Source of the DNA: an uncultured Chloroflexia bacterium
GTDB taxonomy: Bacteria > Chloroflexota > Limnocylindria > Limnocylindrales > CSP1-4
NCBI GenBank assembly: GCA_963748675.1
Contig: CAVVJX010000005.1
Span: forward strand, 260,440 to 324,439
Length of the DNA stretch: 64,000 nt
Direction: 5' to 3'
The position numbers and the translations under genes were made by a program. The notes below the pieces were generated by a model, which did no database searches, was not told the DNA's origin, and was given only the letters and a program-made list of their open reading frames with translations. This document shows, one piece after another, positions 9,124 to 29,800 of the stretch (positions within the stretch are counted from its first letter, which is position 1; each line of letters begins with the position of its first letter).

Positions 9124-9331
9124 GGTGGACCTCCTGTCGGGACAGAGGTCATGCGCCTCTCGGTCCCTTGCCCAAACGACGAACGGGTCCCACCGAAATC
9201 GACATCCTTTGCGAAGGACGGCCGCGGCGAGTCTGAGCACGGTCAGGGACAGTGCCGCCGCCGGTATCATTGGGGAAGCAACCCGCTACCCGACCGGCCT
9301 CGCGCTCGAGGCTGCCAGGAGACCCCCACCG

Positions 9332-10387
9332 TTGGACCTGCTCGTTCTGTTCATCGCGCTCGTCGTCATCCTGATCGGCGCGGAGCTGTTCACCAACGGG
9401 ATCGAATGGTTCGGCCGCTCCCTGAATCTGGCCGAGGGAGCCGTCGGTTCCGTGCTCGCCGCGGTCGGTACCGCGCTCCCAGAGACCCTGATCCCGATCA
9501 TCGCCATCGTCTTCGCGTCGGGCGCAGCGTCCGACGAGATCGGCGTCGGGGCGATCCTCGGGGCACCGTTCATGCTGTCGACCCTGGCGATGTTCGTGAC
9601 GGGCGTCGCGATCCTTGCCTTCAGGCGCCGCCGCGCCACCGGCGGGGAGCTGCGTATCGATGCGGGCGTGATCGCCCACGACATGCGGTATTTCGCGATC
9701 GCCTACGGCCTGGCGATCGGGTCCGCGTTCCTGCCGCAGGAACCGGTCTGGATCCGCTGGATCGCGGCGGTCGCCTTGATCGGCATCTACGCGTGGTACG
9801 TCCGCGGACATCTGCAGGCCGAGGCGGCCGAGGAGGCAGAGGAGCTCGCCCCGCTCCGATTCCGCCGGGTCGACGTCCGGGCTCATCGGAACGATCCCGC
9901 CGTCCCGCGGCTGCGCGCCATCAACCTGCAGGTGCTGGTCGCCCTCGGATTCATCATCGTGGGCGCGGTCTTCTTCGTGGACGCCGTGGAGCATCTGGCC
10001 TCGTCCATCGGCGTCAGCGAGGTGCTGTTGGCACTGGTGATCGCGCCCGTGGCGACCGAGCTGCCCGAGAAGTTCAACTCGATCATCTGGGTGCGCCAGA
10101 ACAAGGACACGCTGGCGATGGGCAACATCACGGGCGCCATGGTGTTCCAGTCGTGCATCCCGACAGTTGTGGGGCTAGTCCTCGCGTCGGAGGCTTGGTC
10201 CATCCAGGAGGGGTCGTACACGGCCTTTGCCTCCGCCGGGATCGCGTTCGCCTCGTCCGCGGCGATCTTCCTGCCGATGGTGCGGCGGGGCGGGCTCCAC
10301 GGCCGCCACCTGCTGATCGGCGGGGTGTTCTACCTCGCGTATCTCGCCCTGGTGGTGGTGGTCGTCAGCGGTAGCGCGCCCGGCTGA
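9332..10387 (+). CDS. Ca2+/cation antiporter (CaCA, sodium/calcium exchanger family)
   Basis: Two alpha-repeat-like motifs (GSVLAAVGTALPETLIPIIA and LALVIAPVATELPEKFNSIIW) and about 10 TM helices. The proposed TTG start at 9332 follows AGGAGA; the start is uncertain because the ORF is open from 9083. Confidence 0.7.
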   Translation: MDLLVLFIALVVILIGAELFTNGIEWFGRSLNLAEGAVGSVLAAVGTALPETLIPIIAIVFASGAASDEIGVGAILGAPFMLSTLAMFVTGVAILAFRRRRATGGELRIDAGVIAHDMRYFAIAYGLAIGSAFLPQEPVWIRWIAAVALIGIYAWYVRGHLQAEAAEEAEELAPLRFRRVDVRAHRNDPAVPRLRAINLQVLVALGFIIVGAVFFVDAVEHLASSIGVSEVLLALVIAPVATELPEKFNSIIWVRQNKDTLAMGNITGAMVFQSCIPTVVGLVLASEAWSIQEGSYTAFASAGIAFASSAAIFLPMVRRGGLHGRHLLIGGVFYLAYLALVVVVVSGSAPG

Positions 10388-10885: not shown

Positions 10886-13474
10886 ATGTCACCGCACCTC
10901 ACCCTCTCGGCCACCCTTCGATCGGCTGTGCGCGGTCGCCGTCGACCGGGCCTCCGCACGGTTGTCGTCGCGCCTGCGGTCGCGGTCATCATCGGGATGG
11001 CGGTCGTGGTCTCGAACAGCGTCGCCGACGAGTACCGGCGCAGCGCCACGGAGTCGGCGGTCCACAGCGTCGAGGCGATCGTGCGCGGCTACGTGGACCC
11101 GGCACTCCACGAAACGAGCCTTGACCTTGGGGCGCCCGAAGACCCGGCGATCGATGCCCAGCTCGAGCAGCTGACCCTCTCCGGCGAGATCCGCCGGATC
11201 AACATCTGGTCACGGGACGGTCGCATCGTCTATTCGAGCGCACCTCAGCTCCGGGGCCAGCGTTTCTCGATTGGGCCGACGATCGCCAACGCCTACTCCG
11301 GCGAGAGCATCGCGCGCTACGTCGGTGGCGACGCGGAGGGCGACACCGGCGATACCCGCGAAGCCGGCGACGGAGCGGACGAACCGGTCGACGGCCTGGC
11401 GCCGATGTCCGGTCGCTTCCTCGAGCTGTTCGTCCCGATCCGCGGTGCCGTTGACGGCGATCCGATCGGTGTCTACGAGCTGTACCAGGACGCCCGGCTG
11501 ATCGAGCAACGCATCGACGACACCCGATCCGACATGTTCATCGTGGCGGTCGTGGCATCGAGCCTGCTCGTCGCCCTCATCTGGCTCGCCTTCGGCGGCG
11601 CATCCCGGGTCCTCGCCGGTCAGAACCGCCGCCTCCAGGAGCAGGCCACGACCGAGCGCCTGCTCCTCGTCGACATGCAGCGCAAGGAGGAGCGCTTCCG
11701 ATCGCTGGTTCAGAACGCATCCGATGGTGTCGTGGTGCTGGGCGAGGACGGACTCATCCGCTACGAGAGCCCGGCCGTCGAGCGGATCCTCGGCAGCCGT
11801 GCCGGGGACCGGGTCGGCCAGCCGGTCAGCACGGACATCCATCCCGACGATCGTGCTTCGGTGGAACGCAGTCTCGCCGACGTCGCCGCGATGAGCGGGT
11901 CGGAGGCCAGGGCCGAGTTCCGCGCCCGCCACGCCGACGGGTCGTGGCGAACACTCGAGGCGATCGCCAAGAACCTCCTGGACGATCCGGCCGTGGGCGG
12001 CGTGGTCGTCAACTACCGCGACATCACCGAACGCAAGATCCTCGAGGAGCAGCTCCGCCACCAGGCGTTCCACGACGTGCTGACCGGACTGGAGAACCGG
12101 TTCCTTTTCCTCGACCGCCTCGGTCACGCCCTCACCCGGGCGGGCCGCGGGGGCCGGCCGACCGCAGTCCTGTTCCTGGACCTCGACGACTTCAAGGCGG
12201 TCAACGACCGGCTCGGCCACGCCGAGGGCGACAAGTTGCTGGTGGCCGTCGCGCAGCGGCTCAAGACCGTGACACGCGCCAGCGACACCGTCGCCCGGCT
12301 CGGCGGTGACGAGTTCGCGATCATCGTCGAGGAGACCGATCAGGCAGAGGCCGAGCAAGCCGCAGCCCGCATCCTCACGGCACTCACGCCTCCGTTCGAG
12401 CTCGCGGATCGGCCCATCGTCGTCCGCGTCAGCATCGGGATCGCCATGCAATCGATCGATGGCGCCGATGCCGACGAACTGCTCCGCCGCGCCGACATCG
12501 CGATGTATGCCGCAAAGGCGACCGGCGGCAATCGCCATGTGGCGTATGAGCCGCGCCTCTACGACGCGACGGTGGCCCGGATGGAGTTGAAGGCCGACAT
12601 GCGCGGGGCGCTGGAGCGCGGCGAGATGCACATCGACTACCAGCCCATCGTCGACCTCGCGTCCGCGGAGATCCTCGGGTCGGAGGCGCTGATGCGCTGG
12701 AAGCACCCGAAGCACGGACCGGTCCCACCGATGGACTTCATCCCGCTCGCCGAGGAGAACGGACTGATCCTCGAGCTGGGCCGCTGGATCCTCGAGACCG
12801 CGTGCCATCAGACCCGCGCCTGGCAGGCGGCCACGGGGCGAGCGGGTTTGACGATCAGCGTCAACCTGTCGGGGCGACAGATCATGGATCGGGACCTGGT
12901 CCCGGACGTTCGCCGCATCCTCTTCGAATCCGGGCTCGCTCCACATGACCTGACGCTGGAGATGACCGAAAGCGTGCTGGTCCAGGACGTCGAGGCGACC
13001 GTCAGCACGCTCAAGGCCCTGAAGGCGCTTGGCGTTCGCCTCGCCATCGACGACTTCGGTACCGGCTATTCGTCGCTGAGCTATCTGCGCCAGTTCCCGA
13101 TCGACAGCCTCAAGATCGACCGGTCCTTCGTCGCGAGCCTCGATGGCAGCCAGGACTCGACGGCGCTCGTCCGTTCCATCCTCGATCTCAGCACGACCCT
13201 GCGACTCGACACCGTGGCCGAGGGCATCGAGGAATCCGAGCAGCGCGACGTGCTGCGCGATCTCGGCGCCCAGCAGGGGCAGGGCTACCTCTTCGCTCGT
13301 CCGATGGGTCCCGTGGACCTGGGCGACCTGCTCGCCGGCCGGCCCACGACGGGTGGCCCGGGTGGCGCAGGTGGGGCGGGTGGCGCGGGTGGCCCGCCGC
13401 CGGCGCGACCCGAGGCCGCCAGACGCACGCCCCGGTCCGCTCGCCGGAACCCCCCGACCGAAGTCATCCGCTGA
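10886..13474 (+). CDS. membrane-anchored PAS-GGDEF-EAL protein (c-di-GMP turnover)
   Basis: Two TM helices flank an extracytoplasmic segment. Then a PAS-like region, GGDEF (RLGGDEFAIIVEE) and EAL (EALMRWKHP, DDFGTGYSSLSYL). The Gly-rich tail is encoded by a 9-bp tandem repeat. Confidence 0.9.
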   Translation: MSPHLTLSATLRSAVRGRRRPGLRTVVVAPAVAVIIGMAVVVSNSVADEYRRSATESAVHSVEAIVRGYVDPALHETSLDLGAPEDPAIDAQLEQLTLSGEIRRINIWSRDGRIVYSSAPQLRGQRFSIGPTIANAYSGESIARYVGGDAEGDTGDTREAGDGADEPVDGLAPMSGRFLELFVPIRGAVDGDPIGVYELYQDARLIEQRIDDTRSDMFIVAVVASSLLVALIWLAFGGASRVLAGQNRRLQEQATTERLLLVDMQRKEERFRSLVQNASDGVVVLGEDGLIRYESPAVERILGSRAGDRVGQPVSTDIHPDDRASVERSLADVAAMSGSEARAEFRARHADGSWRTLEAIAKNLLDDPAVGGVVVNYRDITERKILEEQLRHQAFHDVLTGLENRFLFLDRLGHALTRAGRGGRPTAVLFLDLDDFKAVNDRLGHAEGDKLLVAVAQRLKTVTRASDTVARLGGDEFAIIVEETDQAEAEQAAARILTALTPPFELADRPIVVRVSIGIAMQSIDGADADELLRRADIAMYAAKATGGNRHVAYEPRLYDATVARMELKADMRGALERGEMHIDYQPIVDLASAEILGSEALMRWKHPKHGPVPPMDFIPLAEENGLILELGRWILETACHQTRAWQAATGRAGLTISVNLSGRQIMDRDLVPDVRRILFESGLAPHDLTLEMTESVLVQDVEATVSTLKALKALGVRLAIDDFGTGYSSLSYLRQFPIDSLKIDRSFVASLDGSQDSTALVRSILDLSTTLRLDTVAEGIEESEQRDVLRDLGAQQGQGYLFARPMGPVDLGDLLAGRPTTGGPGGAGGAGGAGGPPPARPEAARRTPRSARRNPPTEVIR

Positions 13475-17450: not shown

Positions 17451-18605
17451 CTAGCGGATGAGCTGGATGCCGATCGATCCCGCGTCGGTGATCGGACCGC
17501 TGCCGACCGGGCCCGACGTGATGTAGCGAACGAACCAGCCGGCGAGACAGCTACTGCTGCCGTTGCCGGCGATCGGCATGAGGGTGGTGCCGTTGCCTTC
17601 GCAAGCGCTGTTGTTCCCGCCGTTCTGATCCGACATGTAGTCGAGGTAGAACGCCGTGACGCGGATGATGTGGTAGACGGCGTTGCTGCCGTTGCCCGTG
17701 ACGCATTCGCCGTCGCAGATCGGGATGAGGACGACCTTGCCGCTGAGGGCGTTGACCTCATCGACCATCTTCTTGGCGCAGTTGTTGCCGTTGTCCGACT
17801 GGACATCGGCCGGGAAGGTCGCGAACTGGATGGCCGGTGGGTTGGTGACCTCGTAGTCGCAGTTGTTCGGCGTGCCATCGAGGTCCAGGATCATGAACGA
17901 GCCGCCACCGGTCTTGCACAGGGGCACGATGTACTCCTGCCCGATCGGCGGATTACCCGGCTGACTCATCTCCCAGTCGGACTCGCTGGTGCCCAGGTCG
18001 CCGTTCGTTTCGCAGTCGGCGATGTTGACCGGGAACACGACCGGAAGGAACTGCCCGCCGGCCAGAGGCCCGGCGATGGCGGTCGCGTCCGCGGAAGCGG
18101 TGAACTGGTTGATGCCGATCACCCGCGCGAAGGCGGTGTCGAACAGCTGATTGCCGGTCGCATGGACACCGGACGTCTCGCCGGGCATGACACCGTCGCC
18201 GACTCGTGCGGCGGCCGTCGTATTGGTGACGACGCCACCGCCCGGGCTGAGCAGCCCGCCGGCTCGGTTCGTGTAATAGGCGGCGACCGAGTCCAGCTTA
18301 TTGGAGGTTGCGATCGAGTTGACCGCGGCCGCGACATCGGCGTCGGTCTTGACCGCTCCGCCGAGCTGCTGGGCGATCACGGTCGCGCCGGCATTCGCCA
18401 CCGCGTCCGCGCCGTTCTGCACGCCACGCTGATGGGCGTAGGCGTTACCACCGTCGAGGATCAGGGCCACGCCACCGATCATCGAGATCATCGCGATGAC
18501 CGCCACGACCAGGATCTGGCCACGGGGCCGGCTCCTCGGACGCTTTGGCGTTGTCTGGTCCATCTTGGCCTCAGTCTTTCGGTGTTGGAAGGGATTCCGG
18601 GTCAT
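17451..18605 (-). CDS. TadG-like (Tad-domain) putative pilus-associated protein, copy 1
   Basis: N-terminal TM plus Tad-type motif ILVVAVIAMISMIGGVALILDGGNAYAHQRGVQNGADAVANAGA. Cys-rich C-terminal domain. The ATG at 18605 overlaps the upstream stop (ATGA); an alternative ATG is at 18563. Confidence 0.75.
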   Translation of the reverse strand: MTRNPFQHRKTEAKMDQTTPKRPRSRPRGQILVVAVIAMISMIGGVALILDGGNAYAHQRGVQNGADAVANAGATVIAQQLGGAVKTDADVAAAVNSIATSNKLDSVAAYYTNRAGGLLSPGGGVVTNTTAAARVGDGVMPGETSGVHATGNQLFDTAFARVIGINQFTASADATAIAGPLAGGQFLPVVFPVNIADCETNGDLGTSESDWEMSQPGNPPIGQEYIVPLCKTGGGSFMILDLDGTPNNCDYEVTNPPAIQFATFPADVQSDNGNNCAKKMVDEVNALSGKVVLIPICDGECVTGNGSNAVYHIIRVTAFYLDYMSDQNGGNNSACEGNGTTLMPIAGNGSSSCLAGWFVRYITSGPVGSGPITDAGSIGIQLIR

Positions 18606-19108
18606 GGCTGCTTCGGACAGTTCAGGGCGGCCACGCCGTCGGTGGGAGTCAGCGGGCAGCTGTACTCGACCGACAACACGGAGGTCGCCTCGAACGTCAC
18701 GCCGTTCTTGAACAGGATGTTGCTGACGAATGGGGTGATCGGGAAGTACGTGGCCTCGAAGGACACGACGGCCAGGCAGCCGACTGCCACGAGGGCGCAC
18801 TGGCTGGAGGTGTTGGGTGTCCCGTCGCTATTGACTTGGTAGAAGTCGATCGCGACGCTCGGGTCGTTGAGCTCGACGATCGCCGTCTGGTCCTTCGCCT
18901 TCTTGATGATGCTGGGCTCGTACTGGTTGACGATCGCGATACGGGCGCCCTCGCGGGCAGCGTTGGTCAGGGTGTTGTAGGCGAACACGGCTCGGCCCAG
19001 ATCGAAGATCCCGACGAGCAGCAGCAGGAAGAGCGGGATGATCAGCGCGAACTCGACGAGGGCCTGGCCTCGACCGCGTCGCGCGTGGTGGCGATCGAAG
19101 AGTTTCAT
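18602..19108 (-). CDS. TadE-like pseudopilin, copy 1
   Basis: Prepilin-type motif G-x4-EF (RGRGQALVEFALIIPLFLLLLVGIFDLGRAV). The ATG overlaps the upstream stop (ATGA at 19105-19108). Confidence 0.8.
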   Translation of the reverse strand: MKLFDRHHARRGRGQALVEFALIIPLFLLLLVGIFDLGRAVFAYNTLTNAAREGARIAIVNQYEPSIIKKAKDQTAIVELNDPSVAIDFYQVNSDGTPNTSSQCALVAVGCLAVVSFEATYFPITPFVSNILFKNGVTFEATSVLSVEYSCPLTPTDGVAALNCPKQP

Positions 19109-20310
19109 GGTCGGTTCACCACGACTGCGCTGTTGCAGGGGACGATCGAGGAGGCGGTGATGGACTGGGTCGTGATCGTGTAGTTGCCGCTAGGCGCACC
19201 TGGGCCGTCGGAAACGGTCCCGGTGAAGCCGGCGCCCGTCCAGACCCCCTGCGCGGAGTTGCGCTTGACGCCATTGAGGGTCGGAGCGGTACACAAGCCC
19301 GAGGCCACCGTGATGTAGTTGACCTTCGTGTGGGTCACGGGTCCCGTCGGGTACGTGACGGTCAAGGTGACCGTGTAGGTGCCTGCGGTGTTGTACGTGT
19401 GGCTGGTGGTCGCGCCGGTGCCGGTGCCCTGGCCCGTCCCGAAGTTCCAGGCGTAGGCCGTCCCGCCCGGAGAGGACGTGCTGGTGAAGTTGACTGCCAG
19501 GGGCGGCGCGCCGGTGTTCTGATTTGTGGTGAAGTTCACCGTGGAGACCGCCGTGACCGTGACGCCCATAGTGGCCGTGCTCGAGCCGAGCGAATTCGTC
19601 GCCGTCATCGTCACGAGATACGTGCCGGGCACCGTGAACACGTGGCTCAGGGGATCCTGCAAGGTCGAGTTGGGGGAGCCGTCGTTGAAGTCCCACAGCC
19701 AGCTCGTCGGGCTACCGCCCGAGGTGTCGCGGAAGACCACGGTGAAGGGAGCCGGGCCGCTCAGCGCTGAAGGCGCCACATCGCCGTTGCCGGTGAACGC
19801 CGCATTCGGCGGACTCCCGCCGGTGCCGCTGCTCGTGGCGGTCATGCCGGTCTTGACGGGGAAGACCGCCGAAGACGAGACGGCAACGGACCCGCCCAGG
19901 ATGTTGGAGATGCCCGGGGTGATGATCCCGAACGTGCAGGTGAGCGACACCGCCGCCTCGTCGCCGAGGTCCTGGCCGGTGAAGGTCGGAGCCGGCGCGG
20001 TCTGCACGCCGCCGACCACCGGGAGCCGGCAATTGTTGGCGGTCGCGTCGTTCTTGATCTGGGCCTGGTAGCGGGCCTTGATCGCCGCGTCACCCGAGCC
20101 CGACCATGCGGTCGGATTGTTCGCCGCCAGGTTGGCGCCGATGCGGGCCATGCTCTGGAGGTTGATCCAGCCCAGATACACGCGACCGAAGTCGAGCGCG
20201 ATCAGCGTCAGCATCAGGATGATCGGCAGGACGAGCGCGAACTCGACAAGGCTCTGGCCTCGCGAGTGGCGATCGCGGCGACCGCGTCGGGTGATGTTCG
20301 GGAGGCGCAT
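19105..20310 (-). CDS. TadE-like pseudopilin fused to two PKD domains and a PASTA-like C-terminal domain, copy 1
   Basis: N-terminus SRGQSLVEFALVLPIILMLTLIALDFGRVYLG. PKD signatures WLWDFNDGSPNS and YAWNFGTGQGTG. C-terminus CTAPTLNGVKRNSAQGVWTGAGFTGTV...ITTQSITASSIVPCNSAVVV. Confidence 0.75.
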   Translation of the reverse strand: MRLPNITRRGRRDRHSRGQSLVEFALVLPIILMLTLIALDFGRVYLGWINLQSMARIGANLAANNPTAWSGSGDAAIKARYQAQIKNDATANNCRLPVVGGVQTAPAPTFTGQDLGDEAAVSLTCTFGIITPGISNILGGSVAVSSSAVFPVKTGMTATSSGTGGSPPNAAFTGNGDVAPSALSGPAPFTVVFRDTSGGSPTSWLWDFNDGSPNSTLQDPLSHVFTVPGTYLVTMTATNSLGSSTATMGVTVTAVSTVNFTTNQNTGAPPLAVNFTSTSSPGGTAYAWNFGTGQGTGTGATTSHTYNTAGTYTVTLTVTYPTGPVTHTKVNYITVASGLCTAPTLNGVKRNSAQGVWTGAGFTGTVSDGPGAPSGNYTITTQSITASSIVPCNSAVVVNRP

Positions 20311-20564
20311 ACAAGGGATCCTTGGAGTACGGGTTCGGAGGTGTGTCACCGATGCTCGGCGAAGCACCTTTCACGGTCCCTTGAAACGGTGCGGGCGTGC
20401 ATAGCCCGGACGGGTCACGGACGGGGGCGAGATAGTCCGGCCCAGGTCCTGCCTCGGCGGCCTTCCGACTGCCCTCGACCGCCCTCAACGCCAGCGAAAC
20501 CCGCGTGGAATCGGAAGAGCCGCGCCCCCCGACGCGGCTCTCCCTCCCCCGGATATTCGCAGGG

Positions 20565-21809
20565 TTACTTGATGAGCTGGATCCCGATCGCCGTCGTCCC
20601 CGGAGCCGTGTTCTGGCCCGGGATGATCGGACCGGCGGTCACGTAGTTGACGAACCAACCCTTGAGGCATCGAATGCGCCACCGTTGATGACGGGCACGA
20701 CCGTACCCTCCGGGGGGGTTCGCGCATTCATCGACGTTGCTGCCCTGGCACGTGGACCTGCTCGAGGTGGAAGACCGCGAGCGTATGGATGTAGTACCAG
20801 GTGTTGTTGCCGTGCGGGTCGGTCCCCGGCTGTCCGGGCAGATGCGCCGTCCCGGATCCTCGCGGCACGCGCCGTTGTTGAGCGGCAACATGACGGTCTT
20901 GCGGATGTAAGCGGACAGCTCGCCGTCCACGCTGTTCGGGTTGCCCGGTTGCGTCTGGAACCAGTCCGGGAGGTTGACCGTGATATTGAGGGGCCCGGTG
21001 ATCTCCTGACCCAGGTTCATGCCGGGCGCCAGGTCGAGCCATCCGAATGCCCCGGACCCACCGCTCGCGCTCTTGCACAGCGGCAGGATCGCCATCTTCG
21101 AAGTGTCGCCATTCGCGAACGTGCCACCTGGCAGCGACTCTGCGCCGACGATCGGCCAGTACTCGTCACCGGGGTCGGCGCCCGGAGGCGGCGCGCCGAT
21201 CCACGGCCCCTGGATGAGATTGCCGGAAGAGTCGCACTGCGACACCTGGACCGGGAACGTGACCGGGAGGAGCACGCAGCCATCGTCGTCCGCGACGCAC
21301 TCGCCGCTCAGCGGACCCGCGACGACCGTTGCCTCGGCAGTCGCCGGGATCTGGTCGAACCCGAAGATCCGGCTGAATGTCGTGCTGACCGTGCGCGAGC
21401 CGGTGGCTCGAACGCCCTCCGCGCCCGTCGGGATCGGCCCGGCCGTGTTCGTCACATTGATGCCGATGGGTGCCCCGAAGTCGTCCGTGTATTCGGCAGT
21501 CCAGCCGGCGAGCCCGTTGGCGAGCGCGCTCGCCGAGACCGCGTTGTACACCGCCAGGTTGTCGCGGCCCGAAGCGCCGCCCATGTACTCGGCGATGACG
21601 ACGGTACCGGCGGTGGCCGCCCCGTCAGCGCCGTTCTGGGCGACACGCTGCTGGGCGAACAGGGCCCCGCCGTCGAGCACGAGCCCGACCATCCCGACGA
21701 CCGCCACGAGGGCCAGAGCGGCGATGACCAGCATCTGCCCTCGGGTGGCGTCTGGCGACGAAGAAGCTCGCATCTTGGTTTTCCTTTCGGCTGACGGAAG
21801 TCTGGGCAT
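20565..21809 (-). pseudogene. TadG-like protein, copy 2, with compensated internal frameshifts (pseudogene or assembly indels)
   Basis: The N-terminus MLVIAALALVAVVGMVGLVLDGGALFAQQRVAQNGADGAATAGT parallels copy 1. Between about 20650 and 20880, the segments matching copy 1 (GNNTWYYIHTLAVFHLEQV, GTVVPVINGGAFDA) lie in the other two frames. Confidence 0.6.
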
Positions 21810-22324
21810 CAGGGTTGCTTCGGACAAAGATCGGCACTCGCGTAGGCGGTGATGTTGACGTTGGGGCACACGAACTCGACCGGCACCTCGGACCGCGCCC
21901 TGAAGGTGATCGGTCCGATGACCTGGCCGAGGATCGGCGTGATCGCGGTCCAGTTCGACTCGGGGCTGACGATCGCGATGCAACCGACGGCGATGTCCCC
22001 GGTAGGGCACACCGGGTTGGACGTGGGCGTCCCTTTTGGGCCTTCGCGATGGAAGCGAACGAAGTTCGGCGTGCCAAGGTTGGTGACGCTGTTCCCGAAC
22101 GTCATCTCGGTTACGCGGTCCTCGATGAGACCCTCGTCCTGGTTCACGGCCGCCAGTCGCGCCCCCTCACGAGCGGCGTTGGTGAGGCCGTTGTAGACGA
22201 ATACCGCCCGCCCGACGTCGAAGACGGCCATCAGGATCAGCATCGCGATGGAAAGACGAGGGTGAGCGACGAATTCAATGAGCGATTGACCTCCCTAGGC
22301 CCGCGACGAGCCGGGACGCCTCAC
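21809..22324 (-). pseudogene. TadE-like pseudopilin, copy 2, with an in-frame TAG in the leader
   Basis: GTG at 22324 overlaps the upstream stop (GTGA). The reading is V-RRPGSSRA-TAG(22297-22295)-GGQSLIEFVAHPRLSIAMLILMAVFDVGRAVFVYNGLTNAAREGARLAAVNQ. The first in-frame start after the TAG (22243) falls inside the TM helix. Confidence 0.55.
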
Positions 22325-23492
22325 GGGCCGACCGTGATGATGGACGCGCATCCGCTCGGCTGCGGGTCGATGGTCCCCCCGGTGATCGACTGGTAGTTGA
22401 TGTCGTAGTTGCCCTGTCCGCCCTGGAACAGGACCTGGGTCTGAATCCGGCACTCGCCCACCGCGCCTGGGCGCTGTTCTTCTTGACGTTCGCGAAGTCC
22501 GGCACCGTGCAGACCTTGTTCGTGACGACGATGTACGCCACCTTCGTGATCGTACTCTGGCCGCCCGTGCTGTCGGTGACCCGCAGCGTGATGTCGAACA
22601 CGCCATCGTTGGGGTAGTTGCGCGATGGCGTCCGGCCCGTCGCGTCGAACGTGCCATCACCGTTGAGATCCCAGTCCCAGGCGACGTAGGTCACCGGGTC
22701 GGCGGGGCGCGCGGTGTCCACGCGACGGTGAGGCCTGTTCGCGGGTCGGTGAAGTCGGCCGGGAGCCGGCGGCAGGGGCGGGACGGTGACCGTGATGTAG
22801 TCGGGCTTCGCGTCGTGTGGGTCCCGCCGGCGCGACGACCCGGAGCGATACGCCGAACGTGCAGGTCTGCCCCGGCGTCCCCGCCAGTTGTACGTGACCG
22901 TCTGCGTCCCCGTCGTCAGGGAGCGTTGGGCGTGGCAGTGCCCGCCCCGGAGCCACCGGGCGCCACCCGGAAGTTCCAGACCTGGCTACGGGGCCGCTGG
23001 TGGATTCGTCGGTGAAAGGCCGCGGTGGGCGACCCGGGAATGCGGGGAAGGTCACCCGCGGGACGACGAGGCACTCGGCGTCCGCGGTCGCCACCAGGAT
23101 CGTTGCTGCCGACGATGTTGGAGATGATCGGGGTGAGGAGGCGGAAGGTCATCTCCACGGTGACGGGAGCGACCGTCGCGGGGTCCCACTGCTCGGGTCG
23201 GGGTCCTTCGGCGCACACAGCCGGCGTCAGGTCGACCGTCGTCCGGTCCACTTCGTCGATGCCGCCATTGCTTCGGTCAGCACGCCGCCATCGCCGGCGG
23301 CGTCACTCCAGCCGATTCGCCGGGATGGTTCGCCGCGATGCGGGTCATCTGCTGGAGGCATTCGGACCGGATCAGCCCAGGAAGACGCGCCCGAAGTCGA
23401 TGGCCGTGAGCATCAGGAGCAGGAGAACGGGCACGACCAAAGCGCAATTCCACGACGCTCTGGCCACGGCTTCGCCTGCGACGACTGGGCAT
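22321..23492 (-). pseudogene. TadE-PKD fusion, copy 2, with multiple frameshifts
   Basis: Homologous pieces lie in three frames. MPSRRRRSRGQSVVE then ALVVPVLLLLMLTAIDFGRVF (shifted) then QQMTRIAANHP; then VEMTFRLLTPIISNIVGS; then the PKD-like WDWDLNGDGTFDATG...ITLRVTDSTGG; then CTVPDFANVKKNSAQARWASAGF followed by the shifted TQVLFQGGQGNYDINYQSITGGTIDPQPSGCASIITVGP. Confidence 0.6.
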
Positions 23493-23678
23493 CACAAACA
23501 ATCTCGGCATCAAGTCCCCCGGCGGATTGGTACGAAAGTCCCCGTATGGTGCCATGGGGACCTTTCACGTCACCTTACGGGTGGTGCGGCGGCGCGCCGA
23601 GCATGACCCGGCTGGCGGGTACTTCGGGGGACCTCTGGGTCAGTTGGCATGGGTCGATCCAGGTAGCACCATCCACAC

Positions 23679-23977: not shown

Positions 23978-25450
23978 CTACCCCTCGTCGCCCGGCTCGC
24001 CCGGCAGCACGATCGTGAACGCCGCGCCACGGCCCGCGGCCGCGACCCCGGCCCCGGCCGCAACCCCATTCCCGGCCGCAGGCTCCAGCACCAAGTCCCC
24101 GCCCATCGCCCGGCACAGCTCGCGCGAGACGTAGAGACCCAGCCCGCTCCCCCCGTCCGATCCGGCCTCCTCCCCGCGCGCGAACCGCGCGAACAACCGG
24201 TCACGATCCCCCTCGGCGATGCCGGGCCCGCGGTCCTCGATCGTCAGCCGCACCTTTCGGTCCGCCTCGTCGGCGACGATCCTGGCCCCGACCGGGGTAC
24301 CGCCACCGTACTTCACGGCATTGTCCAGGAGTGCCCACAGGACCTGGTCGAGCTGGTCCGCGTCGGCGACGGCCAGCCAGCCCGCGGCCCCATCCTCGAG
24401 CGAGAAGGGCACGTCATCCACGCCGAGGGCCTCCCACGCCTTGCGCGCGCGCGTGGACAGCGACACGACCTCGGTCCGTGGCTTGAGCGCGCCGGACTCC
24501 AGGCGCGTCACGGTCAGGAGCTGCCGGACCATCCGCGACAGCCGCTCGGACTGCTCCGCGATGATCCCCAGGCGTCGATCAGGCGGGGCCAGCTCCTCGC
24601 TCAGCTGTTCCGCGTAGGCACGGATGCTCGTCAGGGGCGTCTGGAGGTTGTGGCTCACGCCGCGCAGGAAGTCGTCCTTGGCCTCGTCGAGCTCCAGCAG
24701 CTGACGGTTCTGCGACTCCACGGTCGCGAACAGCTGGGCGTTGCGGATCGCCGCGGCCATCGCATTGGCGAAGAGCTCCAGCAGGTCCTGGTCCGCCGGC
24801 TCCCAGCGGCGTGTCGCCGGCAACCGGCCGATCAGCACCCCGATGTCCGCGCCACCCGCCCGCATGACCGCGCGCAAGGGGCGCGAGACACCCGGGACGA
24901 CCTCCTCCTCATCGACGATCGACGGGTCGCCGACCACCACGGTCGCATCGATCAACGCGAACGCCGACGTCGCATCCGACGATGTCCGATCGACCAGTGC
25001 CTCCACATCGTCGCGCAGCGAGACCTCGTCGATGGCCGCGAGGATCCGCCCGAGCTCCCGGTTGCGCCGCCCGAGGTCGGCGGCCAGTCGGTTGTGGCTG
25101 TCGGCCAGTCGCGCGAACTCGTCGTCACCGGCGACCCGGATCGGGGTCGAGAGGTCGCCGGTCGACACTCGGTCCACGGCCGCCACGACCGAGCGGAGCG
25201 GGGCGGTCAGCTCGGTCGCCAGGGCGTACGAGGCGAAGATCGCGAATGCCAGCACGATGGCGATCGCGAACAGGAGGACCCGGCCGATCGTCTCGTCCGT
25301 GACCTGGAGGCGGAATGTCGTCTCGAGGACCAGCACGACCAAGCCGAACGTGGCCAGCGGCAGGACCGACGCCACGATGAACGCGACGGTGAGCCGGGAC
25401 CGGAAGCTCAGCCGGGGGGTGGGTTCGGTGGGCCGCTCGTCCTCGGTCAC
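23978..25450 (-). CDS. sensor histidine kinase (TM-HAMP-GAF-like-HisKA-HATPase)
   Basis: H-box FLRGVSHNLQTPLTSIRAY, N and G boxes (LLDNAVKYG, DRGPGI, GSGLGLYV). GTG start at 25450 overlaps the response regulator stop. Confidence 0.85.
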   Translation of the reverse strand: MTEDERPTEPTPRLSFRSRLTVAFIVASVLPLATFGLVVLVLETTFRLQVTDETIGRVLLFAIAIVLAFAIFASYALATELTAPLRSVVAAVDRVSTGDLSTPIRVAGDDEFARLADSHNRLAADLGRRNRELGRILAAIDEVSLRDDVEALVDRTSSDATSAFALIDATVVVGDPSIVDEEEVVPGVSRPLRAVMRAGGADIGVLIGRLPATRRWEPADQDLLELFANAMAAAIRNAQLFATVESQNRQLLELDEAKDDFLRGVSHNLQTPLTSIRAYAEQLSEELAPPDRRLGIIAEQSERLSRMVRQLLTVTRLESGALKPRTEVVSLSTRARKAWEALGVDDVPFSLEDGAAGWLAVADADQLDQVLWALLDNAVKYGGGTPVGARIVADEADRKVRLTIEDRGPGIAEGDRDRLFARFARGEEAGSDGGSGLGLYVSRELCRAMGGDLVLEPAAGNGVAAGAGVAAAGRGAAFTIVLPGEPGDEG

Positions 25451-26175
25451 CCGGGATCGCTCGTCGGGCTGGCGGGCGTCGCCACCAGTCGATAGCCCAC
25501 GCCGCGCACGGTCTGGACGTGCATCGGGCGGTTGGCGTCCACCTCGACCTTCTGGCGCAGCCGCCGCATCGTGACCCAGACGTAGGACGGGTCGGCGTCC
25601 TCGGTCTCGGCCCAGCCGCGGGCGAGCAGCGTCTCGGTCGTCACGACCTGGCCGAGGTTCGCGGCAAGCGCGTAGAGGAGCCGAGACTCGGTGGGGGTGA
25701 GCTGGACGGTCTGCCCGCGGACGGTCGCCTCGCGCCGGTGCAGGTCGAGCGTCAGGTCCGGACCCAGGTCCAGGCTCTGGCGGGGGACCTTGTCGCCCAG
25801 GCGCCGAAGCACTCTATTGATACGCGCGCGGAGCTCCGGGTAGTGGTACGGCTTGGTGACGTAGTCCTCGGCGACCTCCTCGAGCAGGTCGGCCTTCGAG
25901 TCGCCGGCATCGATGGCGGACAGCACGATGATCGGCAGGTCGGCATGGGTCTTGATCTCGCGCGCGAGGGTCAGGCCGTCCATGCGCGGCATCATCATGT
26001 CGACGATGAGCAGGTCCGGCCAACCCGCCTGCAGCCGCCGGAGCGCCTCGTCCCCGTCGCGCGCGGTCGCGATCTCGTAGCCGTCCGCCCGCAGCTGGTC
26101 GGCCAGCAATACGAGCAGGTTCGGGTCGTCATCGACGATGAGGATCCGGGGGGCTGGACCGCCGCCGCTGAGCAT
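25447..26175 (-). CDS. OmpR/PhoB-family response regulator
   Basis: Receiver domain (ILIVDDDPNLL...LLIVDMMMPRMDG...YVTKP) and winged-helix C-terminus (LTPTESRLLYALA...VRGVGYRL). ATG at 26175. Confidence 0.9.
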   Translation of the reverse strand: MLSGGGPAPRILIVDDDPNLLVLLADQLRADGYEIATARDGDEALRRLQAGWPDLLIVDMMMPRMDGLTLAREIKTHADLPIIVLSAIDAGDSKADLLEEVAEDYVTKPYHYPELRARINRVLRRLGDKVPRQSLDLGPDLTLDLHRREATVRGQTVQLTPTESRLLYALAANLGQVVTTETLLARGWAETEDADPSYVWVTMRRLRQKVEVDANRPMHVQTVRGVGYRLVATPASPTSDPG

Positions 26176-26753
26176 GTGCGTGAGTATGCCGCGCCTCCCC
26201 GGACCCGGGAGAGTACGGATGACGGTGCGCTCGCGCACCGAAAACGGAACTTGTGCGGTCTTGTAGTCCAAATGGGGGATGACTTTCGTCGGTAGGGCGG
26301 TACTGTTGCCGCTCAAGCCGCCCTCGGGGGAGGGCAGGAATTGAACAGTCGACCCGTCCCGTTTCTGGGGAAGCGACACTCGGGCCGAGCGCGCACAACC
26401 AGCACTCATCTTCGTTCGATCTTTTCGGCAGTCAGCGCGATCGACCCGAGCGACCCACCCGCACCACGATCTTGCACTCGGGATCGTGGGCCGCGGGGCT
26501 TTCGCTTCCCCATCGAACTCGACGGGTCTCCGTCACCAACGCGTCCAGGCGTTCAGGGAGGCCTATATGTCCGGTTCAGCCGGCCACCGATCCGTCGCTC
26601 GACTCCTCGTTGCCATCCAGGTCTTCCTGCTCGTGGCTTCTTTCTTCGCGCCCGTCGCGAGCCTGGCGGCCGAGCCGTCGGACGATCCGGGCGCCACGCC
26701 GAGCGCGGAACCGTCCGCCGAGCCGACGCCGGAACCGACCCCGGAACCGACGC

Positions 26754-26888
26754 GCCGAGCCGACCGCCGAGCCGACGGCCGAGCCGACTGCCGAGCCCAC
26801 GGCCGAGCCGACGGCGGAGCCGACTGCCGAGCCCACGGCCGAGCCGACGGCCGAGCCGACCGCCGAGCCCACGACCGAGCCGACGCCG
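26754..26888 (+). repeat. 12-bp tandem repeat GCCGAGCCGACN encoding an (AEPT)n linker
   Basis: About 11 consecutive 12-nt units, seen directly. Flanked by looser PE/PT-rich sequence from about 26695 to 26960. Confidence 0.85.
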
Positions 26889-29800
26889 AGCCGACCGCGA
26901 GCCCACTCCGCCGAGCCGAGCCCGCTCGAGCCGACCGCCGAGCCCACCCCGAGCCGACCGCCCCCGCGGCCACCAAGCCCTACGTCGTCAGCTTCGTCGC
27001 CGGCACCGCCTCCGCCGCGCAGACAGCTGCCGTCGCCGCCGCCGGCGCCACGACCACCGACACGATCGGCGTCCTTCGCATCCACGCGGTCGACGCGTCC
27101 GATGCCGCCGTCGCCCTGCTGCGCGCCGACCCGCTCGTCGGCGCCGTCGAGCTCGATCGCAGCCGCGCCGCCGAGGCCACCCGACCGACCCGAACTACGC
27201 CGACCAGTGGGCCCTGCCGAAGATCGGCTGGGACGATGCGTATCGGCGTCGTCGAGCCCGCCGGCTCCGCCGTCGTCGCCGTCCTCGACACCGGTGTCGA
27301 CGCCTCGCACCCCGACCTCGACGACAACATCGTCACCGGCACCTCGTTCGTCGCGGGCTCCGAGCTGGTCGACCGACACCAACGGCCACGGCACCGCCAT
27401 GGCCGGCATCGTCGCGGCCGAGACCGACAACGGCGCGGGCGTCGCCGGCGTCGGCTACGCCGGCGTCAAGGTCATGCCCGTCACCGTCCTCGGCGCCGAC
27501 GGCCACAGGCCACGACAGCGACATCATCGAGGGCGTCGTCTGGGCAGCCGACCACGGCGCCGACGTCATCCTCATGTCCTTCAGCGCGACCGGCTACTCG
27601 TCCGCCCTGCAGGCCGCCATCGACTACGCCTGGTCGAACGGCGTCGTCCTCGTCGCGGCCGCCGGCAACGACGGCTCGTCGACCCCGGCCTTCCCGGCCG
27701 GCGATCGCGGCGTCATCGGCGTCTCGAACACCGACTCGTCCGATGCCCTGGCCGGCTCGTCCAACTACGGCGCGTCGGTCTTCCTCGGCGCCCCCGGCGT
27801 CGGCATCTGACCACCGAGAACGGTGGCTACTCGACGATCTCCGGCACGTCCGCCTCCGCGGCGCACGTCGCGGGCGCGGCGGCCTTGCTGGCCGCGGCCG
27901 ATTCGATCGCCTCGAACGGCACGATCGTCGGCCGGCTGGCCCGCAACGCCGATGCGGCGGGCACCGTCGGCCGAGACCGGCAATGGCCGGCTGAACCTGG
28001 CCCGGGCCCTGGGCGACACCGCGACCGACTCCGTGAAGCCTGCGGGCGCGGCGCCGGTCGGCGACGGCGGTCCGTTCGTCGGGCCGTACGACGCGGCCGC
28101 AAACAACTTCAACGTGTCGCCAGCAACCCAGAACGTCGCGCCCGGCTTCACGAAGAGCTACTCGTGGGCGTTCACCGCGCAGAACAGCGCCAACCAGGCG
28201 ACAACCACGTTCACGACTCCGGCGGGATGGACCGCGCCAACGACCGCTGCCGGTGCCGGCAACGTGACGGTCGTGGCCGGAACCTGCCCGGCTACCTTGG
28301 CATCCGTGACTAGTGCAACCCGCGTGATCACGATCGACCAGGGCCCAGGTAGCAACACCTGTGCCAATGGGACGACGTTCACGCTCTATTACAACCAGGC
28401 GACGTCACCGACGTCGGCTACTGCACCCGAGCAGACGTATCAGTTCGTGAACCAGCATGGCCAGGATCCGGACGTGACGGTCGAGTACAACTACTTCTCG
28501 AACGTCTCCCCTAGCGGCAACTGGAACGTTGCGGCCAACTGGGAGTTGTGCGACGCGACCACGGGATCGATTGTTCGCCCATCCCTCCGGCTGTCGCGCC
28601 GAGCGCGGCCAACGCGAACCTCATCCATATCCGATCCTTCGACACCATCAATGTTTCTTCTGCGGTTACCGCGGATCAGGTGCACGTCGCCACGGCTGCC
28701 ACGCTGATCATCAATGCCGGTCAGACGCTGACGCTGGCGGATGGCCCCAATGGAGCCGGCGGCTGGCGGACCTCACGTCGGCGGGACGGTCGTGGTCAGC
28801 GGCACGCTGACTCACGCGCCCAGTGCTGGCACAGGTGTGTTTGGCGCGTTCCAAATCACGAGCTCGGGCGTTGTAAATGGCAATGGCGCTAGTCCCGCAG
28901 CCAAGCCCGATTTCATCGTCGCGTTTGGGAATCTGACGATCGATCCGGGTGGCGTGTGGACGACGGGCGGTTCGGGCCCGATGAGGTTGACCTTTGAGTC
29001 AGGGTCAACAGGCACGCTCAACGGAAATGTCACGGGAACGAGTGATCTGACGGTCAACGGCATCGTCACCGCATCTGCGAACATCGCCATGGCCTCGATT
29101 GCCAACCTGCAGATCGGCGGCAGTCTCACGCTGTCGAGCGCCATCCTGACGACACCGCGTGGGAACGGGGAATTTCGTCGCCCAGATCAATTCTGGAGGC
29201 AACCTCGCCCTGGATGGCTCGTCCACATGGAACGTCGGGACCGTGGCCGCTGCTCGTGGCGAGGTCCGGAGCGGCGGCACGCTCGCAATGAGCCCATCTT
29301 CGGAAGTCCTTGGCGCAGGGTTCCTGCAAGTCGACTCTGGCGCGACGCTACGTATCGGTTCGGCCGACGGTATCGCGAACAGCACGACCACCGGTAACGT
29401 CCGGACGTCGGCCGCCGACACCTACTCGACCGCTGCCAATTACACCTACGACGGCGCGACCCAGGTTACCGGCAACGCCTTGCCTGCGACGATCGCCACG
29501 CTCACGATCGCCAGCACCGGCGTCGTTACCATAAGTAGCCTGGGGGCCCTTCAAACGGTCACCGGGCTGACCGCCGCGACGTCCGGGACGTTCGATCAGG
29601 GACCGAGCATCAACCTGACCGCGGGTGGCGGCATCTCAGTGGCCGCCGGCGCGACCTACCGAAACCTCGGCACTGGCGATCTGACGCTCGGGTCTGCCGG
29701 CGTGACCAACGCGGGCGCGATCCAGATCAACGCAAACGGCGCCACTTGCGGCAATACCGACGACATCCTGATTCGCCGACCAACATTGGAACGCAGCGCC

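What the first reader, a model, noticed from the sequence alone, without database searches (positions are those of the whole stretch)
19105..20310. Pseudopilin carrying two PKD domains and a PASTA-like terminal domain: candidate pilus-tip adhesin
The N-terminus has the Tad pseudopilin processing and anchor motif G-QSLV-EF followed by a hydrophobic helix. The remaining ~330 residues are two PKD modules (WDFNDG, WNFGTG) and a ~65-aa PASTA-like domain. Canonical TadE/TadF are small (about 150-200 aa), as far as I recall. Grafting adhesin-type Ig domains onto a minor pilin would put a binding module on the pilus. The same architecture is recognisable in the decayed copy 2.
Basis: partly seen in the sequence, partly recalled or inferred. 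Interest (0 to 1): 0.6.

Follow-up and report, generated by a model that had tools for sequence, protein, structure and literature searches.

The report
Tad minor pilin with PKD–PASTA arm
This gene encodes a minor subunit of a Tad (Flp) pilus that carries two Ig-like PKD domains and a small PASTA-like end domain, so it probably decorates the pilus tip; it belongs to a large, unstudied family in soil Chloroflexota and is a new variant of the known "modular pilin / pilus tip complex" idea.

Summary
Window 19105-20310 (minus strand) is one 401-aa ORF. It has a TadE-type prepilin signal (G18|QSLVEF, Pfam TadE above cut-off), a pilin-like module, two PKD domains and a 64-aa C-terminal domain. The predicted fold of that last domain matches only PASTA domains, although sequence support for PASTA is weak.

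The fusion is real: more than 120 full-length homologue clusters keep it. The gene overlaps (ATGA) a canonical 168-aa TadE-like gene, which is followed by a TadG-like gene. In related Limnocylindria (Chloroflexota) MAGs this triplet occurs in one to three tandem paralogous copies behind a two-component system. In one relative it sits directly after flp-cpaB-tadZ-cpaF-tadB-tadC.

Within the family the pilin module carries 0-3 PKD and 0-3 PASTA-like domains. This suggests PKD is the stalk and the PASTA-like domain is the head.

The best reading is a modular Tad minor pilin that is part of a TadE/TadE/TadG tip complex. The tip location and any binding role are inferred, not shown. The concept is already published (Raynaud 2021; Herrou 2025), so this is a new variant of a known kind.

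The "decay" of copy 2 is doubtful. Short-read contigs restore the frame at all four places checked, and an unrelated S8 peptidase gene in the window is also frameshifted.

The parts
19105..20310 (-). Modular TadE-type minor pilin gene, 401 aa (the finding)
   Evidence: ORF; Pfam TadE plus 2x PKD; full-length homologues; AF2 model
20257..20310 (-). Leader peptide, aa 1-18 (basic, variable), ending in G18. The predicted prepilin-peptidase cut lies between G18 and Q19, with E23 at +5.
   Evidence: G18, Q19, S20, L21 and V22 are at least 90% conserved and E23 and F24 are invariant across 48 homologues; the leader is variable in length and sequence. The cleavage itself is inferred from what is known of Flp/TadE/TadF processing by TadV.
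19855..20256 (-). Pilin module, aa 19-152: long N-terminal helix, a second helix and a small beta-sheet, with an invariant Cys94/Cys125 pair
   Evidence: AF2 helices 19-64 and 75-91 and strands 109-151; conservation; this module has 3452 clusters at E<=1e-3 in the representative library
19810..19854 (-). Gly/Ser/Thr-rich flexible linker, aa 153-167
   Evidence: pLDDT below 50 for aa 153-164; variable in length among homologues
19549..19809 (-). PKD domain 1, about aa 168-254 (WLWDFNDG)
   Evidence: Pfam PKD_4/PKD, best stretch 184-253; AF2 beta-sandwich with pLDDT 79-92
19303..19545 (-). PKD domain 2, about aa 256-336 (YAWNFGTG)
   Evidence: Second Pfam PKD stretch; AF2 pLDDT above 90
19108..19299 (-). 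C-terminal PASTA-like domain, aa 338-401, beta-alpha-beta3, with an invariant Cys340/Cys392 pair
   Evidence: AF2 pLDDT 93; Foldseek top 31 PDB hits are all PASTA domains; 9 of 22 family members give weak Pfam PASTA hits
18602..19108 (-). Canonical TadE-like minor pilin, 168 aa; its start overlaps the stop of the modular pilin (ATGA)
   Evidence: Pfam TadE 71.6 bits; RG|QALVEF motif; 77% identical to the L001 orthologue
17451..18563 (-). TadG-like large minor pilin, about 370 aa, Cys-rich
   Evidence: Pfam Tad PF13400 25.8 bits; 68% identical to the L001 orthologue
22321..23510 (-). Copy 2 modular pilin (pilin module, PKD, PKD, PASTA-like); several frame breaks in the window sequence
   Evidence: tblastn with the intact L029 paralogue falls into three frames; PKD Pfam hit on a fragment; short-read contigs restore the frame at 23445, 23359-23372 and 22710-22760
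21809..22324 (-). Copy 2 TadE-like gene; in-frame TAG at 22295-22297 in the leader, as the window reads
   Evidence: 52% identical to the L029 type-4 TadE
20565..21773 (-). Copy 2 TadG-like gene; frame slips in the last ~100 codons of the window sequence
   Evidence: applying the indels seen in short-read contigs gives an intact C-terminus that matches L029
23978..26409 (-). Response regulator (ORF 25447-26409, receiver domain from aa 89) and HAMP histidine kinase (23978-25450), immediately upstream on the same strand. This pairing is conserved in relatives.
   Evidence: Pfam; same order in L001/L002; a kinase also lies between the tad core and the triplets in L041

Best explanation
The gene encodes a modular minor pilin of a Tad/Flp (type IVc) pilus.

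Shown:
- It has a TadE-family class III signal (leader, Gly-1, Glu+5, hydrophobic helix).
- It has a small pilin-like fold, a flexible linker, two PKD Ig-like domains and a terminal domain with a PASTA fold.
- It overlaps by 4 nt (ATGA) a canonical TadE-like gene, which is followed by a TadG-like gene.
- This three-gene unit is conserved and tandemly multiplied in related genomes.

Inferred:
- A TadV-type prepilin peptidase cuts after G18.
- The mature protein leaves the membrane together with the TadE-like and TadG-like partners as a three-helix-bundle complex. That complex primes and then caps a filament of Flp pilin built by a tad machine encoded elsewhere in the genome.
- The linker-PKD-PKD segment acts as a stalk on the order of 10 nm.
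- The stalk holds the disulfide-stabilised PASTA-like head away from the pilus tip, where it contacts a ligand. A glycan or peptidoglycan-like ligand is the most natural guess for this fold.
- Paralogous triplets next to it (copy 2 here, up to three in relatives) would give alternative tips.
- The adjacent two-component system would control their expression.
For: - TadE Pfam hit above cut-off and two PKD domains.
- Conserved processing site, E23 and F24 invariant and G18, Q19-V22 at least 90% conserved; two invariant Cys pairs.
- AF2 model: a 46-residue N-terminal helix plus a beta-sheet, then three independent beta-rich domains.
- PASTA fold of the last domain.
- The triplet [modular pilin][TadE][TadG] is found for 84 of 110 modular pilins in 79 related loci.
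- Conserved synteny: response regulator, kinase, one to three triplets, then CN-hydrolase.
- In L041 two such triplets follow flp, cpaB/rcpC, tadZ, cpaF, tadB, tadC and a kinase. Its Flp pilin has the cut site EEG|QTLVEY.
- Five of 79 loci have a CpaF-type ATPase within 10 kb.
- Family architectures are pilin module + 0-3 PKD + 0-3 PASTA-like domains.
- Published precedent: TadE/F/G-like triplets predicted to form interchangeable Tad pilus tips, encoded partly away from the core locus (PMC12075869). Modular pilins also present grafted modules (PMC8179133).
- Sparse soil metatranscriptome contigs lie on the target, TadE and TadG genes.
Against: - No tad core gene (CpaF, TadB/C, Flp or prepilin peptidase) was found in the 64-kb window. 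The link to a pilus machine therefore rests on relatives.
- No experiment or multimer model shows a heterotrimer, a tip location or any binding.
- The window protein's own PASTA-like domain has no significant sequence match to PASTA. The PASTA fold is small and simple, so fold similarity says little about the ligand.
- In the Myxococcus and Pseudomonas models the distal module sits on the TadG/KilN subunit, not on the TadE-like one.
- The metatranscriptome evidence is thin and may include DNA.
Confidence: 0.6

Rival explanations
1. It is a membrane-anchored surface protein rather than a pilus subunit. The TadE-like N-terminus serves only as a (possibly processed) membrane anchor. The PKD-PKD-PASTA ectodomain works at the cell surface as a sensor or binder of cell-wall material. 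This would resemble the PASTA ectodomains of PknB-type kinases, and it could feed the neighbouring two-component system.
For: - The PASTA fold is best known from cell-wall-sensing ectodomains.
- A histidine kinase and response regulator pair is conserved directly upstream.
- There is no tad machinery in the window.
Against: - The conserved Gly-1/Glu+5 motif and the tight, overlapping triplet with TadE-like and TadG-like genes (84 of 110 cases) are hard to explain for a simple anchor.
- Triplets sit inside a tad locus in L041.
- The kinase upstream has its own sensor region, and no physical link to this protein is indicated.
Confidence: 0.15
2. It is a pilus subunit, but its arm has a structural role. 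The protein would sit at the base or along the shaft, and the PASTA-like head would bind the cell's own peptidoglycan. The PKD number would be matched to wall thickness. The arm would then guide or anchor the filament through a monoderm-type envelope instead of binding an external target.
For: - PASTA domains of kinases and PBPs associate with peptidoglycan or its precursors (established knowledge; fold match).
- The stalk length varies in steps of whole PKD domains.
- No secretin was noticed in the L041 tad locus, though it was not tested systematically.
Against: - Minor pilins with bulky C-terminal modules cannot pack into the shaft without a long linker, and they are usually placed at the tip (discussion in PMC8179133).
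- One to three divergent paralogous triplets per genome and cassette turnover between close relatives suit variable external targets better than a constant own wall.
Confidence: 0.12
3. The triplets form a short pseudopilus, as in type II secretion, that pushes out or displays cargo. The PKD-PASTA protein would be released or shed, not kept as a tip adhesin.
For: TadE and TadF were originally called pseudopilins. The triplets lie away from any Flp gene in the window.
Against: - No cargo candidate is conserved next to the triplets.
- No Tad system is known to me to work this way.
- The L041 locus has a normal Flp pilin.
Confidence: 0.05

Closest known systems
Kil/Tad pilus 'Tip' complexes of Myxococcus xanthus (KilL/KilM/KilN, homologues of TadE/TadF/TadG; Herrou et al. 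2025, PMC12075869)
   Same: - Three-gene units of TadE/F/G-type minor pilins.
- Several paralogous units per genome.
- Some units are encoded away from the core pilus genes.
- Cys-rich subunits.
- Variable domains are proposed to be exposed at the pilus end.
(searches compared)
   Different: - Here the long, recognisable extension (PKD-PKD-PASTA-like) is on the TadE-like subunit, not only on the TadG/KilN subunit.
- The triplets are tandem and lie behind a two-component system.
- The lineage is Chloroflexota (Limnocylindria), not a known predator.
- The authors' tip1-4 profiles were found almost only in Myxococcales.
- No heterotrimer model was made here.
Modular type IV pilins such as Streptococcus sanguinis PilB (pilin + vWA) and PilC (pilin + lectin) (Raynaud et al. 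2021, PMC8179133)
   Same: A small pilin module is joined by a short linker to independently folding functional modules. Such pilins are thought to be tip-exposed and to mediate binding.
   Different: - Those are type IVa-like pilins recognised by the IPR012902 N-methylation motif, and their survey was restricted to that motif.
- This protein is a TadE-type (PF07811) pilin of the Tad/type IVc class.
- PKD is not mentioned in the main text of that paper (0 occurrences). PASTA was not searched for, and the paper's datasets were not checked.
Canonical TadE/TadF pseudopilins of Aggregatibacter actinomycetemcomitans and other tad loci (Pfam PF07811)
   Same: Same N-terminal signature: G, then four residues, then E and a hydrophobic helix. 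Same neighbourhood with TadG. The window's own 168-aa TadE-like neighbour is of this canonical kind.
   Different: Canonical proteins are about 150-200 aa and have no extra domains (my own knowledge). This one is 401 aa, with about 235 residues of added modules.
PASTA domains of PknB/PrkC/StkP kinases and class B PBPs (Pfam PF03793)
   Same: Same beta-alpha-beta3 fold, TM 0.51-0.70 to solved PASTA domains. The domain is extracytoplasmic, and in some relatives it is repeated in tandem two or three times.
   Different: - Sequence similarity is marginal: no Pfam hit for this protein and no PDB hit with a family profile.
- The domain has a conserved disulfide.
- It is attached to a pilin rather than to a kinase or transpeptidase.
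- Its ligand is unknown.

Membership tests
TadE/TadF-type Tad minor pilin (Pfam PF07811) | Sequence match to the TadE N-terminal model above the curated cut-off | tested here: met
   45.9 bits against a cut-off of 22.9, aa 18-59
TadE/TadF-type Tad minor pilin (Pfam PF07811) | Class III signal: short basic leader, Gly at -1, Glu at +5, then a hydrophobic helix | tested here: met
   MRLPNITRRGRRDRHSRG|QSLVEFALVLPIILMLTLIAL. E23 is invariant and G18 at least 90% conserved in 48 homologues. AF2 helix 19-64.
TadE/TadF-type Tad minor pilin (Pfam PF07811) | Cleavage by a TadV-type prepilin peptidase | not testable with these tools
   No peptidase gene was identified in the window. This needs a co-expression experiment or the whole genome.
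TadE/TadF-type Tad minor pilin (Pfam PF07811) | Encoded with other tad genes (TadG, a second TadE/F; core CpaF/TadB/TadC/Flp) | tested here: inconclusive
   TadE-like and TadG-like genes lie directly downstream. No core tad gene lies in the 64-kb window. Core genes are adjacent to homologous triplets in L041 and within 10 kb in 5 of 79 loci.
PKD domain (Pfam PF00801/PF18911) | Sequence match above cut-off and an Ig-like beta-sandwich | tested here: met
   PKD_4 96.4 bits and PKD 88.3 bits, two stretches each. AF2 beta-sandwiches with pLDDT about 80-95. Foldseek hits to PKD/Ig tandems.
PASTA domain (Pfam PF03793) | Sequence match to the PASTA model | tested here: not met
   No PASTA hit for the window's own domain at E<=10. 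Only 9 of 22 relatives hit, best E 5.8e-5. A family profile finds nothing in PDB sequences.
PASTA domain (Pfam PF03793) | beta-alpha-beta3 fold of about 65-70 residues | tested here: met
   AF2 pLDDT 93 with strand 6-8, helix 17-26, strands 33-35, 56-58 and 63-66. The top 31 Foldseek PDB hits are all PASTA, TM 0.51-0.70.
PASTA domain (Pfam PF03793) | Binding of peptidoglycan fragments, lipid II or beta-lactams | not testable with these tools
   Needs a binding assay with the recombinant domain.
Tad pilus tip complex (KilL/M/N-type heterotrimer, PMC12075869) | Three co-encoded TadE/F/G-type minor pilins, with paralogous sets in one genome | tested here: met
   Two sets in the window. One to three sets in relatives. 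84 of 110 modular pilins are followed by TadE and then TadG.
Tad pilus tip complex (KilL/M/N-type heterotrimer, PMC12075869) | Confident heterotrimer model with a bundle of N-terminal helices and a distal variable domain | not testable with these tools
Tad pilus tip complex (KilL/M/N-type heterotrimer, PMC12075869) | Sequence homology to the tip1-4 families of Myxococcales | not tested
   The authors report tip1-4 almost only in Myxococcales. I did not compare sequences.

The most novel reading that the evidence does not exclude
An abundant, uncultured class of soil bacteria (Limnocylindria) builds Tad pili with exchangeable tips. The business end of each tip would be a PASTA-like head that recognises peptidoglycan or related glycan strands of other cells. 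The number of PKD spacers (0-3) would set the reach. Cassette turnover of whole tip triplets between close strains would reflect an arms race or partner choice. This would be a pilus-based cell-cell recognition system of a kind not described before.
Probability: 0.15. Interest if true: 0.7.

Novelty: new variant of a known kind. Interest (0 to 1): 0.45.

Why it matters
Tad pili are widespread adhesion organelles, but what sits at their tips is only starting to be understood. This family gives a clear, domain-annotatable example. A TadE-type minor pilin carries a stalk of PKD domains and a PASTA-like head, in tandem exchangeable three-gene sets, in a major soil lineage with no cultured model for pili.

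It extends the "modular pilin" and "adaptable tip" ideas to the TadE subunit and to Chloroflexota.

It also corrects database names. These proteins are currently labelled only "PKD repeat protein" or "cell surface protein".

Finally, it offers a small, well-folding head domain (64 aa, pLDDT 93) that could be tested directly for a ligand.

Tried and rejected
1. Separate-gene or artefactual fusion: rejected. There is no internal stop and full-length homologues are conserved. A near-identical short-read contig spans 19000-20428.
2. Sequence searches of solved structures found nothing, either with the pilin module or with a profile of the C-terminal domain.
3. Foldseek with the whole model returned only generic Ig/PKD tandems. 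The C-terminal domain had to be modelled alone.
4. NCBIfam gave only far-sub-threshold hits, for example PamR and polycystin. PHROGs gave none.
5. A motif search for a CpaF Walker A or an Flp pilin in the window found only the three pseudopilin sites. Pfam scans of 20 other window ORFs found no tad core gene.
6. The promoter and terminator scan was uninformative.
7. My first reading of copy 2 as a heavily decayed T2/T4 chimeric pseudogene with at least 15 indels was withdrawn.
   - Part of that alignment compared non-orthologous cassette types.
   - Short-read contigs from four soil runs differ from the window mainly by indels and restore the frame wherever they cover a break.
   - An unrelated S8 peptidase gene shows the same kind of frame slips.
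8. Crude regex counts of PKD and PASTA motifs and the first triplet count were replaced by family HMM searches.
9. Metatranscriptome contigs gave only weak support for expression.
Full report
**What is there**

On the minus strand, 19105..20310 is a single ORF of 401 codons from ATG. It has the codon-position GC pattern of real genes in this 68% GC window (GC3 0.88).

Pfam results:
- TadE (PF07811) at aa 18-59, 45.9 bits against a cut-off of 22.9.
- Two PKD domains: PKD_4 at 96.4 bits and PKD at 88.3 bits.

The N-terminus reads MRLPNITRRGRRDRHSRG|QSLVEFALVLPIILMLTLIAL. That is a short basic leader, a Gly, and a Glu five residues later, followed by a hydrophobic stretch.

In an alignment of 48 homologues the leader varies in length and sequence. 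E23 and F24 are invariant and G18, Q19, S20, L21 and V22 are at least 90% conserved. So are two Cys pairs, 94/125 and 340/392, which suggests an extracytoplasmic, disulfide-bonded protein.

**The fusion is real**

The word-index search found 1098 relatives. The best 120 clusters are nearly all 398-434 aa and cover 95-100% of the query at 63-89% identity, and all but two (P0067, P0094) carry both the TadE and the PKD Pfam marks. Their sources name them only "PKD repeat protein", "cell surface protein" or "PKD domain-containing protein". A short-read contig from a soil metagenome spans 19000-20428 with nine substitutions and one 6-nt indel in the leader.

**Structure**

The AlphaFold model built with the homologue alignment has mean pLDDT 78.7. 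It shows:
- a 46-residue N-terminal helix (aa 19-64), a second helix (75-91) and a small sheet (109-151);
- a disordered Gly/Ser/Thr linker (153-164);
- two beta-sandwiches (about 170-253 and 258-335, pLDDT about 80-95);
- a final beta-alpha-beta3 unit (338-401).

Foldseek with the whole model returned only Ig/PKD tandems. Modelled alone, the last 68 residues reach pLDDT 93. Their top 31 PDB matches are all PASTA domains: PknB, PrkC, StkP, PonA2, PBP1 and PBP2x, at TM 0.51-0.70 and best E 1.8e-3.

At the sequence level PASTA is marginal. The window's own domain gives no Pfam hit, 9 of 22 relatives hit with best E 5.8e-5, and a family profile finds no PDB sequence. "PASTA-like fold" is therefore the correct wording. 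Membership by sequence is not met.

**Neighbourhood**

The stop codon of the gene overlaps the ATG of a canonical 168-aa TadE-like gene (18602-19108, Pfam TadE 71.6 bits). About 35 nt further on lies a TadG-like gene of about 370 aa (17451-18563, Pfam Tad PF13400).

Upstream on the same strand lie a second set (20565-23510) and then a HAMP histidine kinase and a response regulator. Downstream is a convergent CN-hydrolase gene.

No CpaF-type ATPase, TadB/C, Flp pilin or prepilin peptidase was found in the window. This was checked by motif search and by Pfam scans of 20 further ORFs.

**Relatives**

Almost all are in Chloroflexota MAGs labelled Limnocylindria, Limnocylindrales or "Chloroflexia" from soil. 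The closest, L003 and L004, are about 89-90% identical in DNA to the window's flanks.

Synteny is conserved: response regulator, kinase, one to three tandem triplets [long TadE][short TadE][TadG], then CN-hydrolase. L001/L002 carry three triplets.

The window's copy 1 is the orthologue of the triplet next to the hydrolase. Against L001 it is 70% identical for the modular pilin, 77% for TadE and 68% for TadG. The slot between the kinase and this triplet holds different triplet types in different genomes. That indicates cassette turnover.

**Link to a pilus machine**

L041, another Chloroflexota MAG, has the following genes in one direction:
- an Flp pilin (…EEG|QTLVEYGLLLALIAIIV…);
- CpaB/RcpC, a TadZ-like receiver-ParA protein, CpaF (T2SSE), and TadB and TadC (T2SSF);
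- a histidine kinase;
- two triplets [long TadE][TadE][TadG].

Five of the 79 loci have a CpaF-type Walker A within 10 kb. The long TadE proteins of L041 consist of the pilin module, a poly-proline linker and a PASTA-like domain, with no PKD.

**Family survey**

I built HMMs from the homologue alignment for the pilin module, PKD1, PKD2 and the PASTA-like domain. I searched all stop-to-stop ORFs of the 79 loci plus the window:

| Architecture | ORFs |
|---|---|
| pil-PKD-PKD-PASTA | 36 |
| pil-PASTA | 30 |
| pil-PKD | 21 |
| pil-PKD-PKD | 13 |
| pil-PKD-PASTA | 11 |
| pil-PASTA-PASTA | 4 |
| pil-PASTA-PASTA-PASTA | 1 |
| pilin module only | 165 |

Of 110 modular pilins with enough downstream sequence, 85 are followed by a short TadE, and 84 of those are then followed by a TadG.

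An exhaustive HMMER search of 1.84 billion cluster representatives with aa 1-165 gave 3452 clusters at E<=1e-3, 440 at E<=1e-10 and 89 at E<=1e-30. Of the best 150, 120 are at least 220 aa and 70 carry at least one PASTA-like domain.

This pilin subtype is therefore habitually a carrier for C-terminal modules. The recurring end piece is the PASTA-like domain, and the PKD number varies. That fits PKD as a stalk and the PASTA-like domain as a head. This assignment is an inference.

**Mechanism proposed**

By analogy with Flp, TadE and TadF processing by TadV (established knowledge), the protein would be cut after G18. Its hydrophobic helix would bundle with those of the TadE-like and TadG-like partners. 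The complex would prime and cap an Flp filament, and the flexible linker plus two PKD domains would hold the PASTA-like head beyond the tip.

This matches two published frameworks:
- Modular pilins that present grafted modules. Raynaud et al. 2021 found more than 1,200 proteins in 264 architectures among IPR012902 pilins.
- Tad tips formed by paralogous TadE/F/G-like triplets with exposed variable domains. Some are encoded away from the core locus, and the authors propose this is general (Herrou et al. 2025).

Differences here:
- The recognisable extension is on the TadE-like subunit.
- The head has a PASTA fold.
- The sets are tandem and lie behind a two-component system.
- The lineage is Chloroflexota.

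None of the functional steps (cleavage, complex formation, tip location, ligand) was or could be tested here.

**Copy 2**

The same order is recognisable at 20565-23510: pilin module, PKD, PKD, PASTA-like, then TadE, then TadG. It is closest (50-60% aa) to an intact "type 4" triplet in L029, L011 and L012. In the window sequence the frames are broken in all three genes, and the TadE leader contains a TAG.

Logan short-read contigs from four soil runs differ from the window at these sites mostly by small indels, with few substitutions. They restore the frame at every break they cover:
- one base at 23445;
- 8 nt at 23359-23372, giving …FLGWVNLQQMTRIAAN… (read by hand);
- eleven small gaps totalling 21 nt at 22710-22760, giving a clean PKD start PMADFTATPRTGLEPLVVNFTT…;
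- seven indels at 20671-20844, giving an intact TadG C-terminus that matches L029.

An unrelated S8 peptidase gene (about 27.6-28.1 kb) shows the same frame slipping. The repeat-protein genes at 30.5-35.1 kb look similarly disturbed.

The indel-to-substitution ratio and the presence of slips in other genes point to local consensus errors in the source assembly, or possibly strain mixtures, rather than evolutionary decay. A strain-specific pseudogene cannot be excluded, and the TAG could not be checked. I therefore treat copy 2 as probably a second functional tip set. My earlier description of it as a decayed T2/T4 chimera is withdrawn.

**Expression**

A few soil metatranscriptome contigs lie on the target (19649-19829, two mismatches), on the TadG-like gene (17541-17801, no mismatch) and, at 90-95% identity, on the TadE-like gene and the 5' end of the target. 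The libraries are low-depth and some may contain DNA. This is weak support only.

**Verdict**

Identity as a modular Tad minor pilin in a TadE/TadE/TadG unit is well supported; tip location and adhesion are reasonable inferences.

It is a new variant of a known kind. Interest is moderate (0.45), because the concept is published and the family is large. The PASTA-like head on a TadE carrier, the stepwise PKD stalk and the tandem exchangeable sets in a major uncultured soil class are still worth a specialist's attention.

Noticed in passing
window 20565-23510: The frame breaks of the second triplet are absent from near-identical short-read contigs of four soil metagenomes. The differences are mostly small indels with few substitutions, so the 'pseudogene' look is probably an assembly or consensus problem or a strain-specific allele. 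The in-frame TAG at 22295-22297 could not be checked.
   Followed up: yes
window 26472-28313 (+), especially 27600-28100: A subtilase (Peptidase_S8) gene with an N-terminal Pro/Thr/Glu-rich repeat (AEPT x10) is split over at least two reading frames. The central part of the catalytic domain and the Ser-motif segment lie in different frames. It is a second gene in the window with frame slips.
   Followed up: partly
window 30498-35140 (+): This is a long run of near-identical ~97-aa tandem repeats (…TYTFSIFDPGDDTVTAVTVDCGANGDP…) followed by Ig-like Big_13/Big_3 domains. It is probably one giant surface protein whose ORFs are broken up. The region has strong GC skew (-0.15 to -0.17) and AT skew (+0.22 to +0.27). 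Two adjacent 195-aa ORFs start with identical sequence.
   Followed up: partly
window 23978-26409 (-); L001 1832-4007; L041 8325-9845: A response regulator and HAMP histidine kinase pair is conserved immediately upstream of the minor-pilin triplets. In L041 a kinase separates the tad core genes from the triplets. This suggests dedicated regulation of tip genes.
   Followed up: partly
L003/L004 about 7200-9750; L001 4161-9782; L029 5070-9816: The slot between the kinase and the conserved triplet holds different triplet types in genomes that are about 90% identical elsewhere. One type has two PKD domains and a Pro/Thr linker but no PASTA-like end. Another is PKD plus an unassigned beta domain. 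Whole tip cassettes seem to be exchanged.
   Followed up: partly
L041 1421-1672 and 9980-13528: An Flp pilin with the cut site EEG|QTLVEY heads a complete tad locus. The two long TadE proteins there join the pilin module to a PASTA-like domain through a PPPPPPPP or PPPP linker instead of PKD domains.
   Followed up: yes
window 20269-20274: Short-read contigs from two soil runs lack 6 nt (two codons) in the variable leader peptide of the target gene. This is a harmless length polymorphism upstream of the cleavage site.
   Followed up: no
window 10886-13474 (+): An 862-aa PAS-GGDEF-EAL protein (c-di-GMP turnover) lies 4 kb from the triplets. Such regulators often control adhesion and pili, but no link was examined.
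   Followed up: no
window 19523-20071 (+): A 182-codon open frame with high GC3 lies antisense to the target gene. It is a shadow ORF of the high-GC coding strand, not a gene.
   Followed up: no
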